A DNA stretch of 47,366 nucleotides from IMG/VR virus record IMGVR_UViG_2630968533_000004, one strand, 5' to 3'. Source of the stretch: a virus (taxonomy: Duplodnaviria > Heunggongvirae > Uroviricota > Caudoviricetes). The position numbers and the translations under genes are program-made. Under the pieces are notes generated by a model. That model saw only the letters and a program-made list of their open reading frames with translations, made no database searches and was not told the origin of the DNA. Shown one piece after another: positions 4,756-19,121 of this stretch (the first letter of the stretch is position 1; each line of letters begins with the position of its first letter).

Positions 4756-4808
4756 GGGCGGCAGAGCAGTCACGGAGTAAAACTGATACCGCCAAACGTC
4801 ACCAGAAA
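4756..4808 (-). ncRNA. dicF: DicF small RNA (53 nt) followed by U-tract
   Basis: Reverse complement of 4756..4808 reads TTTCTGGTGACGTTTGGCGGTATCAGTTTTACTCCGTGACTGCTCTGCCGCCC followed by TTTTTAA, matching the recalled DicF sequence; located between ydfA-like and dicB as in Qin. Confidence 0.8.
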
Positions 4809-8580: not shown

Positions 8581-8779
8581 TGTTAGGTATTTTAGACGTT
8601 ACTAGATTAAAAAGCATTAGTTCAGGAGTGAATTGACATTCTCATTTTTCATGGCACAGGGTAGATCTGGCGTGGTTGTCCGCTTTGTGCCAGAAGCGGA
8701 CGTTACAATACAATCACTATGCTAATGCGCATTGATATGTGATATAACAATAATCAACCGTTCAAAAAGGAGCATTTAT

Positions 8780-9802
8780 ATGAGCAGGATGATAATTGAT
8801 ACAAATATTCTTTACTCACTAGTTGGTCTGTCGACAAACCAAAAAATAATTAACTCCCCTATAGATCAATTCAAATTATCCATTACGACACCATCACTCA
8901 TAGAAGTGATCTCTAAATATTGCAATGACTTAGGGGCTGTAAAAAAATGCATTAGCCCAATCATAAACGGAAATATTGAACTAATTAGCATTGGTCATAC
9001 TCCAATCTCAAATGAATTTCTTTATAGGTTGCATTTTTCAGACAAAATAGACGAAGTAAAAGATATTATTGATAATGTTAGAGCACTAAAAATATCTAGA
9101 GAGGCTGAGTTTTATAGGTTCATACTCATACTGGTTGTCTCTGGTTTGTTTGAGGTTATTAGAGAAGATGGATACAAGTTTGATAACGATGTACAAAATC
9201 AAAGTCAACTTAGTCTTGTGCAGACTCTACTTGAATCTAATATGGAATTAATTTTAGACTTCTTTAAAGATGAGTTGCGGAATGGATATATTAATGGAAA
9301 TGAGCAGCAATCAGCTTTGAAAGCTTTTGAAACCATGCTTATCGGACTCCTACATGCTTTTCATGTCAACTATCATATGATTAAAACTGACACAGTTAAC
9401 ATTTCCGGAAGCCAAGACAGACTCAAAAATCTGTATGATAGTATAAAAAATGATAATTTTGATAAAAAGTTTAAAAAATATATGGAGAATCCAATATCCC
9501 TTGCCTGCAAAAAAAAACACGAATCAGTAGTTGATAACTACCTGAAAGAAATGGAGGAGGGGATTTCTGGCGCTCGTGGGCTTACTAAGAATTCGTTGAG
9601 CTTTCTAATGAGCAAGGTTGAGGATGCATATAAAAATGGTCGTAAATTACGAAAAAATGACATATTTGACTTTCTAATAGTTATTTCTCTAAATATGCCA
9701 GACACTTTGATTTTAACACTTGATAAAGGTTTTTTAAAAGACCTTAAAGATCTTCACCCTAACAGCTATAAAAAGTGTCTGGATTTCGGTTTTGTAAATT
9801 AA
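8780..9802 (+). CDS. AT-rich cargo protein, candidate PIN-like nuclease fold (possible defence / abortive-infection gene)
   Basis: 340 aa from ATG at 8780 with AAGGAG RBS; N-terminus MSRMIIDTNILYSLVG resembles the start of PIN domains (catalytic Asp in DTN), C-terminus DTLILTLDKGF resembles a PIN C-terminal strand; K/N/I-rich composition, visibly lower GC than flanking phage genes. Confidence 0.65.
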   Translation: MSRMIIDTNILYSLVGLSTNQKIINSPIDQFKLSITTPSLIEVISKYCNDLGAVKKCISPIINGNIELISIGHTPISNEFLYRLHFSDKIDEVKDIIDNVRALKISREAEFYRFILILVVSGLFEVIREDGYKFDNDVQNQSQLSLVQTLLESNMELILDFFKDELRNGYINGNEQQSALKAFETMLIGLLHAFHVNYHMIKTDTVNISGSQDRLKNLYDSIKNDNFDKKFKKYMENPISLACKKKHESVVDNYLKEMEEGISGARGLTKNSLSFLMSKVEDAYKNGRKLRKNDIFDFLIVISLNMPDTLILTLDKGFLKDLKDLHPNSYKKCLDFGFVN

Positions 9803-10873
9803 AAATATATTGATGTAAAATAAAACGCACCCACATTTAACTTAGCTAGACTATATCCTTCAATTATTCTATCTGCTTTTTGTTAAATGTGGGGTTGCAG
9901 ATGTTACGAGTCAATTAAATTTGCAAGTCAGGTAGAATTGATAAGAATTGCAATACGAATCCGTGAACATTAATGCTAACGCTAAGTATACGAAAGATAT
10001 TGTAAATATACTTCTTTTTTTGTTTTTAAGTTCTTTTATTTGACAGTAGTTCCATCATTCAATTGCGTATTATCTTCCAATGCCAGTGACACTCCCTCAT
10101 TATGAGAGGATTGTGGTAATCAAAAGAAAAATTAATATCACGCCAAGAATATTCGAAACCAACCCTATGGTGTTAAGTCCTGGTGATGTCATTTAGTTTG
10201 CTCTAGGTTTATTATTCAGAAAGCAAAGAATATTCGTTAAATTATTATGTTAGCTTTAATTATTAAAAAACATGTTAATTATCATCAAATGAGCACTTAT
10301 CATCATTTTAGTCAAAGAGGTAGTGAGTATTCATTCTGGATCATAACTGCCTTCCTGTTTACGCTAGTGTTTTTTAAAGTCGATGTCCGCTCATCGCTCA
10401 AAGCGGACTAGAAGGTTAGCTTGTGTCGGACTTTGCGTATTAAATGACTAGTGGTTGAGCCCCATTTCCACAGAAAAAATCAGAGAAACTATACCCAATA
10501 GTTGTATTGAATCACTGACGAGACAGCCTCATATTCATCAGGACTGGTGTACGTCCAATACAGGAGGTTGTGGTGCTGGTTCTCAAATGTGCGCTGGCTA
10601 TTACGGCTGTAATGGCGATTTATTGTCTTGCTATTGTTCTTATGGATCGCCTTTCTGACTGATTTCACATTGGCGAGGTAACGGTAGTTAAGTAGAATGG
10701 CTGCGGGTGCTTGAGGCTATCTGCCTCGGGCATGAACACCAACGGCAGATAGAGAAAAGCCCCAGTTAACATTACGCGTCCTGCAAGACGCTTAACATTA
10801 ATCTGAGGCCAATTTCATGCTAGACACATGTAGGTTAGCCTCTTACGTGCCGAAAGGCAAGGAGAAGCAGGCT

Positions 10874-11029
10874 ATGAAGCAGCAAAAGGCGATGTTAATC
10901 GCCCTGATCGTCATCTGTTTAACCGTCATAGTGACGGCACTGGTAACGAGGAAAGACCTCTGCGAGGTACGAATCCGAACCGGGCAGACGGAGGTCGCTG
11001 TCTTCACAGCTTACGAACCTGAGGAGTAA
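10874..11029 (+). CDS. hokD: Hok/Gef-family type I toxin
   Basis: 51 aa MKQQKAMLIALIVICLTVIVTALVTRKDLCEVRIRTGQTEVAVFTAYEPEE matches recalled HokD/RelF; ORF extends upstream in-frame (10817). Confidence 0.85.
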   Translation: MKQQKAMLIALIVICLTVIVTALVTRKDLCEVRIRTGQTEVAVFTAYEPEE

Positions 11030-11097
11030 GAGACCCGGCGAGGGAGAAATCCCTCGCCACCTCTGATGTGGCAGGCATCCTCAACGCACCCGCACTT

Positions 11098-11122
11098 AAC
11101 CCGCTTCGGCGGGTTTTTGTTT
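11098..11122 (+). terminator. Rho-independent terminator after hok
   Basis: CCGCTTCGGCGG hairpin followed by GTTTTTGTTTTTATTTT. Confidence 0.6.
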
Positions 11123-11245
11123 TTATTTTCAACGCGTTTGAAGTTCTGGACGGTGCCGGAATAGAATCAAAAATACTTAAGTAGCGCGCAGGGATAAGAG
11201 GGATGGTCCCTTAAAGGGGAGAGCTAATTATCCGGAAGGATTCTG

Positions 11246-14241: not shown

Positions 14242-14317
14242 GGCCCTTTAGCTCAGTGGTGAGAGCGAGCGACTCATAATCGCCAGGTCGCTGGTTCAAA
14301 TCCAGCAAGGGCCACCA
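14242..14317 (+). tRNA. tRNA-Ile2 (anticodon CAU, lysidine type) or Met
   Basis: 76-nt cloverleaf folded by hand: acceptor GGCCCTT/AAGGGCC, D-stem GCTC/GAGC, anticodon loop CTCATAA, T-arm GCTGG-TTCAAAT-CCAGC, CCA end; close to recalled E. coli ileX. Confidence 0.85.
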
Positions 14318-14417: not shown

Positions 14418-14494
14418 GCGTTGTTAGCTCAGCCGGACAGAGCAATTGCCTTCTAAGCAATCGGTCACTGGTTCGAATCCAGTACAGCGCGCCA
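14418..14494 (+). tRNA. tRNA-Arg (anticodon UCU)
   Basis: Acceptor GCGTTGT/ACAGCGC, anticodon stem ATTGC/GCAAT with loop CTTCTAA, T-loop GGTTCGAATCC, CCA end. Confidence 0.85.
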
Positions 14495-14958: not shown

Positions 14959-15491
14959 ATACATATCTGGATTATCACCTGTTACGGTAAAAAGTGATTG
15001 CTTACTGTTTTTGTGAATGGCATTGCAGCAGCCGGATAATGTCAGTGCTGGCTGACGGTGTGCTGGTGGCGGGTGTGGTGGTTGTTGCTTTCCCGTTGCT
15101 GAAAAAGAAAACGCCAGACTGTTAGCCGGGTATCAGTTAGCGGGAGAAATTTTTAAATACTTCACAATTCAGGCGGTTGACTGTTCTCTGGTTTGCGGGG
15201 AGTTTGTTAAAAGAAACTGGCATGGTGAATCCCCCTGTGCGGAGGGGCAATCAGCGAGTAGGTATATGGGATAATCGCGGATTCAGGTGCTGGTACTGAA
15301 TTCACCGGGAGGCACCCGGCACCATGCACTTCAATAGATTCTCTCCACATTATGGATATTCTTTCAGAATATCCCACGCAGACTTTGTGTAAATGTTAAC
15401 AAATGTGCGTTTTATTTGATCTGATTCGCTGTTTGAGCGTCCAAAACAACGGTATATATAATCCTTTACTATATGACATATGTGAGGAAAA

Positions 15492-18273: not shown

Positions 18274-18637
18274 ATTAATATTAAATCGGATTATTTTTAG
18301 CGCTGAATGTGAAATTTAAATAAAAAGGACTCTTCCATGAGTCAAAATCCTTGAAATCTTAAGGGTAAGATAAAAGGTCATTAGACAGAATGACACGTTT
18401 TATTAATAAATAAAGCTATTGTTTCATTCGTGTGTTTTTCTTTACAAAAGTAATCCTTGCTATGGTTGGTTAATCATGCGTTAATGGTGTTCTGGTTTGT
18501 TACAAAATTATCTGAAGCAGTCATTGTTATAATTTTATTATTTGTACCTCTTGAGATTTCCTTGTTGGTTTTTCTCTCTGATATTTTTTTTTCGGACCAT
18601 TCTGCCCAAGGGCTAACTTCTTCAAAAGGTAATAATG

Positions 18638-18850
18638 ATGTCTAACAAAATGACTGGTTTAGTGAAATGGTTTAACCCTGAAAAAGGTTTTGGTTTCATC
18701 ACGCCGAAAGATGGTAGCAAAGATGTGTTTGTGCATTTCTCAGCTATTCAGAGCAACGATTTCAAAACGTTAACTGAGAATCAGGAAGTCGAATTTGGTA
18801 TTGAGAACGGACCTAAAGGCCCTGCAGCTGTTCATGTAGTGGCACTTTGA
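18638..18850 (+). CDS. cspI: Cold-shock protein (CspA family, CspI-like)
   Basis: [38 protein letters not shown]... with RNP1/RNP2 motifs; long AT-rich 5' leader typical of csp genes. Confidence 0.85.
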
Positions 18851-19121
18851 GGTAGAAAATATTACAAACCATATTCACTTTAGATGCCCGTGTTGCCATG
18901 GTTCTCAGTATAGAACATCATCTTTTGATGTTTCTGACAGAAATCCTTTCGGGGCAAAATGTATCTTTTGTAAATCAATGATGATTACATTTGATAATAT
19001 TTCACAATACTTAAATGTTAGCCATCTGTCGTTAGATTTAAGAAAGTGAAAATGAAGGCTCCTTCGGGAGCTTTTTTGCTTAGTGTCTAGTCGATGGATA
19101 CTCACATATTACGGTAACATT

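What the first reader, a model, noticed from the sequence alone, without database searches (positions are those of the whole stretch)
10680..11130. Apparently intact hok type I toxin locus without the adjacent relBE found in K-12 Qin
The 51-aa Hok reading frame is complete and is followed by the characteristic structured 3' end and terminator. Many chromosomal hok loci are inactivated by insertions, so an intact copy on an apparently complete prophage is notable. The upstream leader (about 10680-10873) should encode the mok frame and the Sok antisense RNA, which I could not delimit by eye.
Basis: partly seen in the sequence, partly recalled or inferred. Interest (0 to 1): 0.5.

Follow-up and report, generated by a model that had tools for sequence, protein, structure and literature searches.

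The report
Ordinary intact hokD-type hok/sok locus
This is a complete but very common and already annotated hok/sok toxin-antitoxin cassette of a lambda-like E. coli prophage; the cut-down relBE-hokD version in the laboratory strain K-12 is the unusual form, not this one.

Summary
- hok promoter, and an mRNA of about 418 nt starting at 10705
- mok (10817-11029, 70 codons) and hok (10874-11029, 51 aa)
- an antisense Sok RNA (10825 to 10755, 71 nt) with its own promoter
- a 5' tac element that pairs with a 3' fbi element, and an intrinsic terminator

The Hok protein is identical to K-12 HokD. The DNA is 94% identical to the experimentally validated hokW-sokW of Sakai prophage Sp5, and the sok promoter is identical to Sp5's.

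K-12 matches only from 10860 onward. It has lost the hok promoter, tac, ucb, the mok start and Sok to relBE. No relBE is present in the window.

The locus is not notable. At least 80% of this 481-bp stretch occurs in 3927 of 5426 complete E. coli genomes, and 1111 records match at 99% or more. The K-12 relE-hokD junction occurs in only 1165. RefSeq annotates the gene as hokD, phage records as mokW/hokW, and an isolated phage (mEp460_ev081) carries an identical copy.

Verdict: already known, low interest.

One side observation: an unannotated, conserved 30-aa hydrophobic ORF lies directly upstream (10570-10662).

The parts
10670..10698 (+). hok/mok promoter: -35 TTGGCG, 17-nt spacer, -10 TAGAAT
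   Evidence: Promoter scan, 9 of 12 matches. The -10 box ends 7 nt before position 1 of the Rfam hok leader model. The -10 region is shared with Sp5 hokW.
10705..11122 (+). Full-length hok (mok-hok) mRNA, about 418 nt. The 5' end is set by homology; the 3' end is set by the terminator.
   Evidence: The Rfam RF01794 match starts at 10705. Fold: -174 kcal/mol, z = -7.35. Homology with Sp5 hokW runs 10686-11101.
10705..10716 (+). tac element (5' end GGGUGCUUGAGG)
   Evidence: Pairs with 11079-11091 in the full-length fold, pair probability 0.99. After removal of the 3' end it pairs with the neighbouring sequence or with ucb. The Rfam consensus tac/ucb stem is satisfied.
10755..10763 (+). ucb / anti-SD box (AAAAGCCCC). 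It can pair either with the mok SD region or with tac.
   Evidence: Full-length fold pairs 10759-10765 with 10803-10809. In the Rfam structure it pairs with 10705-10712. Element definitions are taken from PMC9841398.
10805..10808 (+). mok Shine-Dalgarno (GAGG), 8 nt before the mok ATG
   Evidence: Read directly from the sequence. Same position as in the R1-type locus and hokC.
10817..11029 (+). mok reading frame, 70 codons. It is in frame with hok and shares its stop codon.
   Evidence: ORF list. Same arrangement as annotated mokW/hokW and mokC/hokC. The exact 70-aa product is on at least 1000 public contigs.
10755..10825 (-). Sok antisense RNA, 71 nt. Its 5' tail covers the mok ATG and SD; a long terminator hairpin and a U tail follow.
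   Evidence: Maps base for base onto annotated sokW (AP000422 60019-60089). Fold: single-stranded 5' part plus hairpin, -32.8 kcal/mol, z = -5.2. PMC8621323 gives sokW as 71 nt.
10832..10860 (-). sok promoter: -35 TTGCCT (10860-10855), 17-nt spacer, -10 TAACCT (10837-10832)
   Evidence: Identical to the Sp5 sokW promoter region, where mutating the sokW promoter abolished antitoxin activity (PMC8621323). Conserved in all 8 hokD/W-class loci examined. Homologous to R1 TTGCGC-17-TATCCT.
10860..10865 (+). hok Shine-Dalgarno (AGGAGA). This is also the point where homology with K-12 hokD begins.
   Evidence: Alignment with K-12: identity starts at 10860.
10874..11029 (+). hok toxin gene, 51 aa, identical to K-12 HokD/RelF
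   Evidence: Pfam HOK_GEF 82.9 bits. PHROG 251 114.7 bits. Exact HOKD_ECOLI. RefSeq annotation is hokD.
11037..11058 (+). Stable 3' UTR stem-loop (9 bp). Likely the 3' end-protecting hairpin of the processed mRNA.
   Evidence: Fold. The role is inferred from the equivalent R1 hairpin described in PMC9841398.
11079..11091 (+). fbi element (CCUCAACGCACCC), complementary to the 5' end
   Evidence: Pairs with 10705-10716. Found 45-55 nt after the stop codon in relatives. It co-varies with the 5' end between the GGGUGC and GGCGC classes: a locus's own 5' end pairs better than the other class's in 41 of 43 unique loci.
11098..11125 (+). Intrinsic terminator (7-bp GC-rich stem, T run)
   Evidence: Terminator scan.

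Best explanation
[quoted passage not shown] It sits in the early-right (nin) region of a lambda-like prophage.

What the sequence and comparisons show:
- A constitutive promoter makes a stable mRNA of about 418 nt.
- The first 12 nt of that mRNA (tac) pair with a 13-nt box near its 3' end (fbi).
- The mok ribosome-binding site is paired with an upstream box (ucb).
- A 71-nt antisense Sok RNA is encoded opposite the mok start, with a promoter identical to that of the experimentally validated sokW.

What is inferred from the R1 and Sp5 systems:
1. The full-length mRNA is translationally inert and does not bind Sok.
2. Slow 3' trimming removes fbi, and the 5' end refolds onto ucb.
3. The mok start is exposed, and ribosomes translating mok open the hok start.
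4. Abundant but unstable Sok pairs with the processed mRNA, which RNase III then degrades.
5. When Sok supply falls, through loss of the element or prophage induction, Hok is made. It inserts into the inner membrane and collapses it.

In a prophage, the likely pay-offs are the earlier lysis and larger phage release shown for hokW-sokW, and/or retention of the prophage.
For: - Family signatures: Rfam RF01794 115 bits; Pfam HOK_GEF 82.9 bits; PHROG 251 'MokW-like host killing' 114.7 bits.
- Close relatives: 94% identity over 416 nt to Sp5 hokW-sokW, with mok, hok and Sok in exact register. Hok is identical to K-12 HokD.
- End pairing: tac/fbi pairing probability 0.99 in the full-length RNA and lost on truncation, where tac/ucb pairing rises from 0.00 to 0.09-0.67.
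- Covariation: tac and fbi co-vary across 43 unique loci.
- Sok: folds as a 5' tail plus terminator hairpin. Its promoter is conserved in all hokD/W-class loci examined.
- No sign of decay: the same 481 bp is identical in many genomes and in the isolated phage mEp460_ev081.
- Experiments on the Sp5 homologue (PMC8621323): HokW is toxic; sokW neutralises it; mutating the sokW promoter abolishes protection; mitomycin C lowers sokW and raises HokW; deleting the locus halves phage release.
- R1 mechanism and element definitions: PMC9841398.
Against: - No expression data exist for this allele.
- The sok -10 box (TAACCT) matches the consensus at only 3 of 6 positions and was not called by the generic promoter scan.
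- The predicted refolding after truncation depends on the chosen 3' end, and the mok SD does not become clearly more open in silico.
- Native chromosomal loci hokA, hokB and hokC did not mediate post-segregational killing in earlier work, as summarised in bioRxiv 10.1101/2025.08.07.668861. An intact sequence therefore does not guarantee an active killer.
- The locus sits elsewhere in the prophage than hokW does in Sp5. Hok differs from HokW at 4 C-terminal residues and Sok differs from sokW at 7 nt, so the Sp5 phenotype may not transfer.
Confidence: 0.93

Rival explanations
1. The locus is structurally intact but functionally silent. It would be a neutral passenger, like the chromosomal hok loci reported not to kill. 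Sok or the mRNA fold would repress Hok under all natural conditions, giving no benefit to phage or host.
For: [quoted passage not shown] K-12 tolerates loss of the whole regulatory leader. 1165 genomes carry that truncated form.
Against: - All regulatory elements are conserved, and tac/fbi pairing is kept by compensating changes. That points to ongoing selection on regulation.
- The 94%-identical hokW-sokW has measurable phenotypes in a lysogen (PMC8621323).
- hok genes are about four-fold enriched in prophages (bioRxiv 10.1101/2025.08.07.668861).
Confidence: 0.15
2. The cassette's main role is host defence by abortive infection or exclusion of other phages, rather than helping its own prophage to lyse or persist.
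For: Phage defence is a reported function of plasmid hok/sok (cited in PMC8621323 and in bioRxiv 10.1101/2025.08.07.668861). The locus lies next to a variable cargo slot (8705-10384) whose content differs between near-identical phages, as is common where defence morons sit.
Against: Hok gives no hit in PADLOC. The bioRxiv survey found no enrichment of hok next to defence systems. The neighbouring 340-356-aa ORF matches no defence family.
Confidence: 0.2
3. The locus behaves like the K-12 copy: hok is merely the last gene of a longer operon, read from upstream promoters, with no antisense control.
For: The locus has the same orientation as the early-right operon, so read-through from upstream is possible. 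This is inference only.
Against: - It has its own promoter 7 nt upstream of the conserved 5' end.
- relBE is absent.
- The complete leader and Sok module that K-12 lacks are present.
- Cassette homology with Sp5 begins at the promoter -10 region, 10686.
Confidence: 0.03

Closest known systems
hokW-mokW-sokW of Sakai prophage Sp5 / phage 933W (VT2-Sakai, AP000422 59815-60089)
   Same: - 94% nucleotide identity over 416 nt, from the promoter -10 region to just past fbi.
- mok 70 codons in frame with a 51-aa hok, and a 71-nt Sok in the same register.
- Identical sok promoter, hok SD, tac and fbi.
- Hok 92% identical.
   Different: - Four C-terminal Hok residues differ (TAYEPEE versus VDYESEK).
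- Seven nucleotide differences within Sok and its target.
- Here a canonical terminator follows fbi, whereas Sp5 diverges from 11101 on.
- Here the cassette lies between the replication genes and rem/ydfU/Q, not near the right prophage end as in Sp5.
hokD (relF) of the relBEF operon, cryptic prophage Qin, E. coli K-12
   Same: Identical Hok protein. 99.5% nucleotide identity from the hok SD (10860) through the 3' UTR, fbi, terminator and into rem. Same downstream genes, rem and ydfU.
   Different: K-12 has relB-relE in place of everything upstream of 10860. It therefore lacks the hok promoter, tac, ucb, the mok start, the Sok RNA and the sok promoter (all but the last base of its -35 box).
hok/sok (parB) of plasmid R1 and IncF relatives
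   Same: Same order of elements: promoter, tac, ucb, Sok terminator hairpin, mok SD and ATG, sok promoter, hok SD, hok, 3' hairpin, fbi. Same Rfam and Pfam families.
   Different: - Hok is only 41% identical.
- The 5' end is GGGUGC with fbi GCACCC here, versus GGCGC with GCGCC in R1.
- The Sok hairpin is 18 nt longer here.
- The mok ATG lies 57 nt before the hok ATG (in frame), versus 58 nt in R1 (out of frame; positions 116-118 and 174-176 in PMC9841398).
- Carried by a prophage rather than a plasmid.
hokC (gef)-mokC-sokC of E. coli K-12
   Same: Hok 82% identical and 76% nucleotide identity. mok is in frame with hok and shares its stop. Same GGGUGCUUGAGG 5' end.
   Different: Core-chromosome location next to nhaA. 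The K-12 copy has IS186 inserted about 20 bp downstream of hokC. Its Sok hairpin is shorter.

Membership tests
[quoted passage not shown] | Small hydrophobic toxin of the Hok/Gef protein family | tested here: met
   Pfam PF01848 82.9 bits against a cut-off of 22, covering the full 42-position profile. Exact match to HOKD_ECOLI.
[quoted passage not shown] | Structured hok mRNA leader (Rfam RF01794) | tested here: met
   115.3 bits against a gathering score of 59, model positions 1-157 of 157, window 10705-10879.
[quoted passage not shown] | mok reading frame with its own SD, starting upstream of hok and overlapping it | tested here: met
   GAGG, then 8 nt, then ATG at 10817. The frame stays open through the hok start to 11029. 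Homologous in position to mokW, mokC and R1 mok.
[quoted passage not shown] | Cis-encoded antisense Sok RNA covering the mok translation start, with its own promoter and terminator hairpin | tested here: met
   At sequence level only. Window 10825 to 10755 is in register with the annotated 71-nt sokW. The promoter TTGCCT-17-TAACCT is identical to Sp5's. The fold gives a 5' tail plus hairpin plus U tail.
[quoted passage not shown] | Long-range tac/fbi pairing of the mRNA 5' and 3' ends | tested here: met
   10705-10716 pairs with 11079-11091 with probability 0.99. The two ends co-vary between sequence classes in 41 of 43 unique loci.
[quoted passage not shown] | Switch after 3' processing: tac pairs with ucb and releases the mok SD | tested here: inconclusive
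   The Rfam consensus tac/ucb stem is fully formable. In silico truncation raises tac/ucb pairing from 0.00 to 0.09-0.67 depending on the chosen 3' end, but mok SD accessibility does not rise consistently.
[quoted passage not shown] | Hok toxicity, neutralisation by Sok, RNase III cleavage of the duplex, unstable Sok and stable hok mRNA | not testable with these tools
   Shown experimentally for the 94%-identical hokW-sokW (PMC8621323) and for R1 (PMC9841398). Not shown for this allele.
K-12-type relBE-hokD (relBEF) operon | relB and relE immediately upstream of hokD, with hok lacking its own leader | tested here: not met
   No RelB or RelE homologue anywhere in the window (best tblastn E = 0.63). 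Homology with K-12 starts only at 10860.

The most novel reading that the evidence does not exclude
The hok/sok cassette may be half of a two-gene block of small membrane proteins. The unannotated 30-aa hydrophobic ORF at 10570-10662 has a strong AGGAGG ribosome-binding site and ends 8 nt before the hok -35 box. It could be a real, expressed inner-membrane peptide that acts with or on Hok, as a second toxin, a modulator or an immunity factor. It would not then be a chance ORF.

What the evidence allows:
- The ORF is open in all but one of the prophage copies recovered (46 distinct sequence variants).
- Its substitutions are conservative and biased to third codon positions.
- It travels with hok in about nine of ten copies.

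Nothing shows expression or a functional link. A second, weaker option: because mok is in frame with hok here, the locus also makes a 70-aa Mok-Hok fusion with its own activity. The mok-hok offset varies (56, 57 or 58 nt) among close relatives, which argues against selection for such a fusion.
Probability: 0.1. Interest if true: 0.4.

Novelty: already known. Interest (0 to 1): 0.08.

Why it matters
It matters little as a discovery. hok/sok is the textbook type I toxin-antitoxin system. This exact allele is annotated as hokD in RefSeq and as mokW/hokW in phage records, and a near-identical prophage copy has been studied experimentally.

The useful outcome is a correction of perspective. The K-12 relBE-hokD arrangement is a derived, truncated state found in about a fifth of complete E. 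coli genomes. The full cassette seen here occurs in about 72%.

The base-level map of promoter, tac, ucb, mok, Sok, fbi and terminator can be reused to annotate the Sok RNA and mok. RefSeq omits both at this locus.

Tried and rejected
- **R1 sequence:** accession KY749247 is not in the plasmid collection. I used a tblastn hit with 100% R1 Hok identity on an IncFII plasmid instead. That copy differs from canonical R1 by small indels in the leader, so the R1 mok-hok offset (58 nt) was taken from PMC9841398.
- **hokW in VT2-Sakai:** the first 50 kb of the record held no hok. hokW lies in the last 15 kb.
- **sok promoter:** the generic promoter scan did not call it, because its -10 box matches only 3 of 6 positions. 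It was placed by homology instead.
- **NCBIfam:** the Hok models score below their cut-offs (48.5 against 73, and 40.2 against 89), so they were not used as evidence.
- **PADLOC:** no hit for Hok.
- **Weak Rfam hits:** isrK (25.7 bits against a gathering score of 50) and rsmX on the hok 3' UTR, and a C. elegans snoRNA on the leader. All were rejected as chance or hairpin-driven.
- **In-frame mok as a novelty:** rejected, because mokC/hokC and mokW/hokW are annotated the same way and the offset is not conserved among close relatives.
- **The 67-aa ORF at 10455-10658** (annotated 'hypothetical' in some genomes): rejected as a gene, because a 1-nt indel breaks its frame in diverged copies.
- **Searching with the 30-aa peptide:** A degenerate DNA pattern was used instead.

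Full report

Yes. A 51-codon ORF lies at 10874-11029 on the + strand. It matches Pfam HOK_GEF over the whole profile (82.9 bits against a cut-off of 22) and PHROG 251 'MokW-like host killing' (114.7 bits). Its sequence is letter for letter UniProt HOKD_ECOLI.

The region upstream, 10705-10879, matches the full Rfam model RF01794, the hok/sok leader (115.3 bits against a gathering score of 59). A GC-rich hairpin with a T run at 11098-11125 is a canonical intrinsic terminator.

With the -35 box included it runs 10670 to about 11125.

**2. Anatomy**

All coordinates below were verified.

| Element | Coordinates | Basis |
|---|---|---|
| hok promoter, TTGGCG-17-TAGAAT | 10670-10698 | The -10 box ends 7 nt before the conserved 5' end GGGUGCUUGAGG at 10705 |
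| mok SD, GAGG | 10805-10808 | 8 nt before the mok ATG |
| mok, 70 codons | 10817-11029 | ORF list |
| hok SD | from 10860 | Alignment |
| hok ATG | 10874 | ORF list |
| sok promoter, minus strand | -35 TTGCCT 10860-10855; -10 TAACCT 10837-10832 | 17-nt spacer; homology |
| Sok RNA, 71 nt, minus strand | 10825 to 10755 | In register with annotated sokW |

The Sok limits come from aligning the VT2-Sakai/Sp5 record. There mokW (70 aa), hokW (51 aa) and sokW (71 nt, 60019-60089) are annotated, and they map base for base onto the window.

The predicted Sok folds as a largely single-stranded 5' part followed by a long terminator hairpin and a U tail (-32.8 kcal/mol, z = -5.2). Its 5' part is complementary to the mok start codon and SD.

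**3. RNA structure**

The 418-nt transcript folds at -174 kcal/mol (z = -7.35). In that fold:
- The first 12 nt (tac, 10705-10716) pair with 11079-11091 (fbi, CCUCAACGCACCC) with probability 0.99.
- The mok SD region pairs with 10759-10765, which is the ucb or anti-SD box.
- The mok start region pairs with sequences downstream of the hok stop codon.

Removing the 3' end frees tac. tac/ucb pairing rises from 0.00 to 0.09-0.67, depending on the assumed end point. The tac/ucb stem of the Rfam consensus is fully formable. The in-silico switch is therefore compatible with the R1 model (PMC9841398) but is not decisive on its own.

Comparative support is better. I examined 77 hok loci taken from one genome per species. 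Two 5'-end classes exist, and each has a matching 3' box 45-57 nt after the stop codon: GGGUGC pairs with GCACCC, and GGCGC pairs with GCGCC. A locus's own 5' end pairs better with its 3' UTR than the other class's 5' end does in 41 of 43 unique loci.

**4. Relation to K-12**

The alignment with MG1655 shows 99.5% identity from 10860 (the hok SD) through hok, the 3' UTR, the terminator and into rem. There is no similarity upstream of 10860.

K-12 has relE-relB there. It therefore lacks the hok promoter, tac, ucb, the mok start and Sok, and of the sok promoter it keeps only the last base of the -35 box.

The window has no RelB or RelE homologue. The genes downstream (rem, ydfU, then a Q-like antiterminator) and upstream (DicF, dicA/dicC-like regulators, replication genes) follow the order seen in Qin.

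**5. Relation to other known loci**

- **hokW-sokW of Sp5:** identity is 94% over 10686-11101. The similar stretch is almost exactly the transcription unit. The sok promoter, hok SD, tac and fbi are identical.
- **Experiments on hokW-sokW (PMC8621323):** HokW is toxic, sokW protects, and mutating the sokW promoter abolishes protection. Protection depends partly on RNase III and Hfq. Mitomycin C lowers sokW and raises HokW. Deleting the locus halves phage release.
- **R1-type plasmid hok/sok and K-12 hokC:** the order of elements is the same.

The differences from R1 are these:
- Hok is 41% identical.
- The Sok hairpin is 18 nt longer.
- The mok-to-hok offset is 57 nt, so mok is in frame with hok. 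R1 has 58 nt (PMC9841398).

In-frame mok is not new, since mokC/hokC and mokW/hokW share stop codons in their annotations. The offset also varies (56, 57 or 58 nt) among close relatives. This fits the published view that mok translation matters and the Mok product does not.

**6. How common is it?**

| Measure | Count |
|---|---|
| Complete E. coli genomes holding at least 80% of the 481-bp query | 3927 of 5426 |
| Records at 99% identity or more | 1111 |
| Median copies per genome that has any | 2 |
| Genomes with the K-12 relE-hokD junction | 1165 |
| Phage records with a match | 79 |

RefSeq labels the gene hokD. The phage matches include an identical copy in the isolated phage mEp460_ev081.

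The window as a whole is close to that phage. Its early half is 99.9% identical and its structural half 97% identical. 'Apparently complete prophage' is therefore reasonable.

A recent survey reports hok in thousands of prophages and phages, with roughly four-fold enrichment in prophages (bioRxiv 10.1101/2025.08.07.668861). The intact state is thus the norm and not a notable exception.

**7. Mechanism and function**

The most likely reading is the standard hok/sok mechanism:
1. The full-length mRNA is inert.
2. Slow 3' trimming removes fbi and the 5' end refolds.
3. mok translation then opens the hok start.
4. Sok pairs with the processed mRNA, and RNase III degrades the duplex.

The cassette architecture, the end pairing, its covariation and the identity of the sok promoter with a tested one are shown here. 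Processing, RNA half-lives, toxicity control and biological role are inferred.

For the role, assistance of lysis and release at induction (as for Sp5) and prophage retention are the best-supported options. Phage exclusion is possible. A silent passenger cannot be excluded, because some chromosomal hok loci failed to kill in earlier tests.

**8. Verdict**

The locus is already known, annotated and extremely common, so interest is low.

**9. Seen in passing**

- A 286-bp block directly upstream (10385-10670) occurs in 1728 of 5426 genomes and is never annotated. It holds a 30-aa hydrophobic ORF with a strong SD.
- That ORF stays open in all but one of the prophage copies recovered (46 distinct sequence variants). 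Its changes are conservative and biased to third codon positions: 4, 4 and 9 variable sites at codon positions 1, 2 and 3 outside the search pattern.
- In 6 of 73 copies the ORF occurs without hok downstream.
- The slot at 8705-10384 carries different cargo in otherwise near-identical phages. Its 340-356-aa ORF matches no family in four libraries.

Noticed in passing
window 10570-10662 (+), within the conserved block 10385-10670: An unannotated 30-aa hydrophobic ORF (MVLVLKCALAITAVMAIYCLAIVLMDRLSD). Its GTG start follows an AGGAGG box by a few nt, and it ends 8 nt before the hok -35 box.
- The 286-bp block occurs in 1728 of 5426 complete E. coli genomes with no annotated feature.
- The ORF is open in all but one of the copies recovered from viral contigs (46 distinct sequence variants). 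Substitutions are conservative, and variable sites fall 4/4/9 by codon position outside the search pattern.
- 67 of 73 copies are followed by hok, 131-132 nt after the second GTG (10573). Six are not.
- No Pfam, NCBIfam, PHROG or PADLOC family. A few GenBank records call it 'hypothetical'.
   Followed up: partly
window 8705-10384, including the ORF 8732/8780-9802 (+): A variable cargo slot between the replication genes and the hok block. Homology with the otherwise 99.9%-identical phage mEp460_ev081 is lost exactly here, and that phage carries a different gene on the other strand. The AT-rich 340-356-aa ORF matches no family in Pfam, NCBIfam, PHROGs or PADLOC. It is 'hypothetical protein' on at least 1000 contigs.
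   Followed up: partly
window 11012-11015 (hok codon 47, TAC, followed by G): The Tyr47 codon sits in a TACG context. A recent preprint states that hokB is recoded Tyr to Cys by TadA A-to-I editing and that a similar event occurs in hokC, hokD and hokE at the cysteine-46 position (bioRxiv 10.1101/2025.08.07.668861). The motif is intact here, so this allele may need editing for full toxicity. I did not test whether the local fold resembles the TadA substrate.
   Followed up: no
window 10455-10658 (+): A 67-aa ORF annotated 'hypothetical protein' in many GenBank genomes is probably not a gene. Diverged copies of the block carry a 1-nt indel inside it that breaks the frame, while the overlapping 30-aa ORF is unaffected.
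   Followed up: partly
window 4756-4807 (-), 14242-14314 and 14418-14491 (+), 15191-15381 (+), 18479-18896 (+): Other Rfam matches above their gathering scores: DicF sRNA, two tRNAs (the 100%-identical FDAARGOS_497 prophage region annotates tRNA-Ile and tRNA-Arg in this area), STnc100 sRNA, and a cspA-type thermoregulator leader. These are typical of Qin-like or lambdoid prophages.
   Followed up: no
window 10686-11101 versus L008 (Sp5): Similarity between this phage and Sp5 starts at the hok promoter -10 region and stops a few nt into the terminator. The two cassettes sit in different prophage regions and different neighbourhoods. The hok/sok transcription unit therefore behaves as a discrete exchangeable module.
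   Followed up: partly
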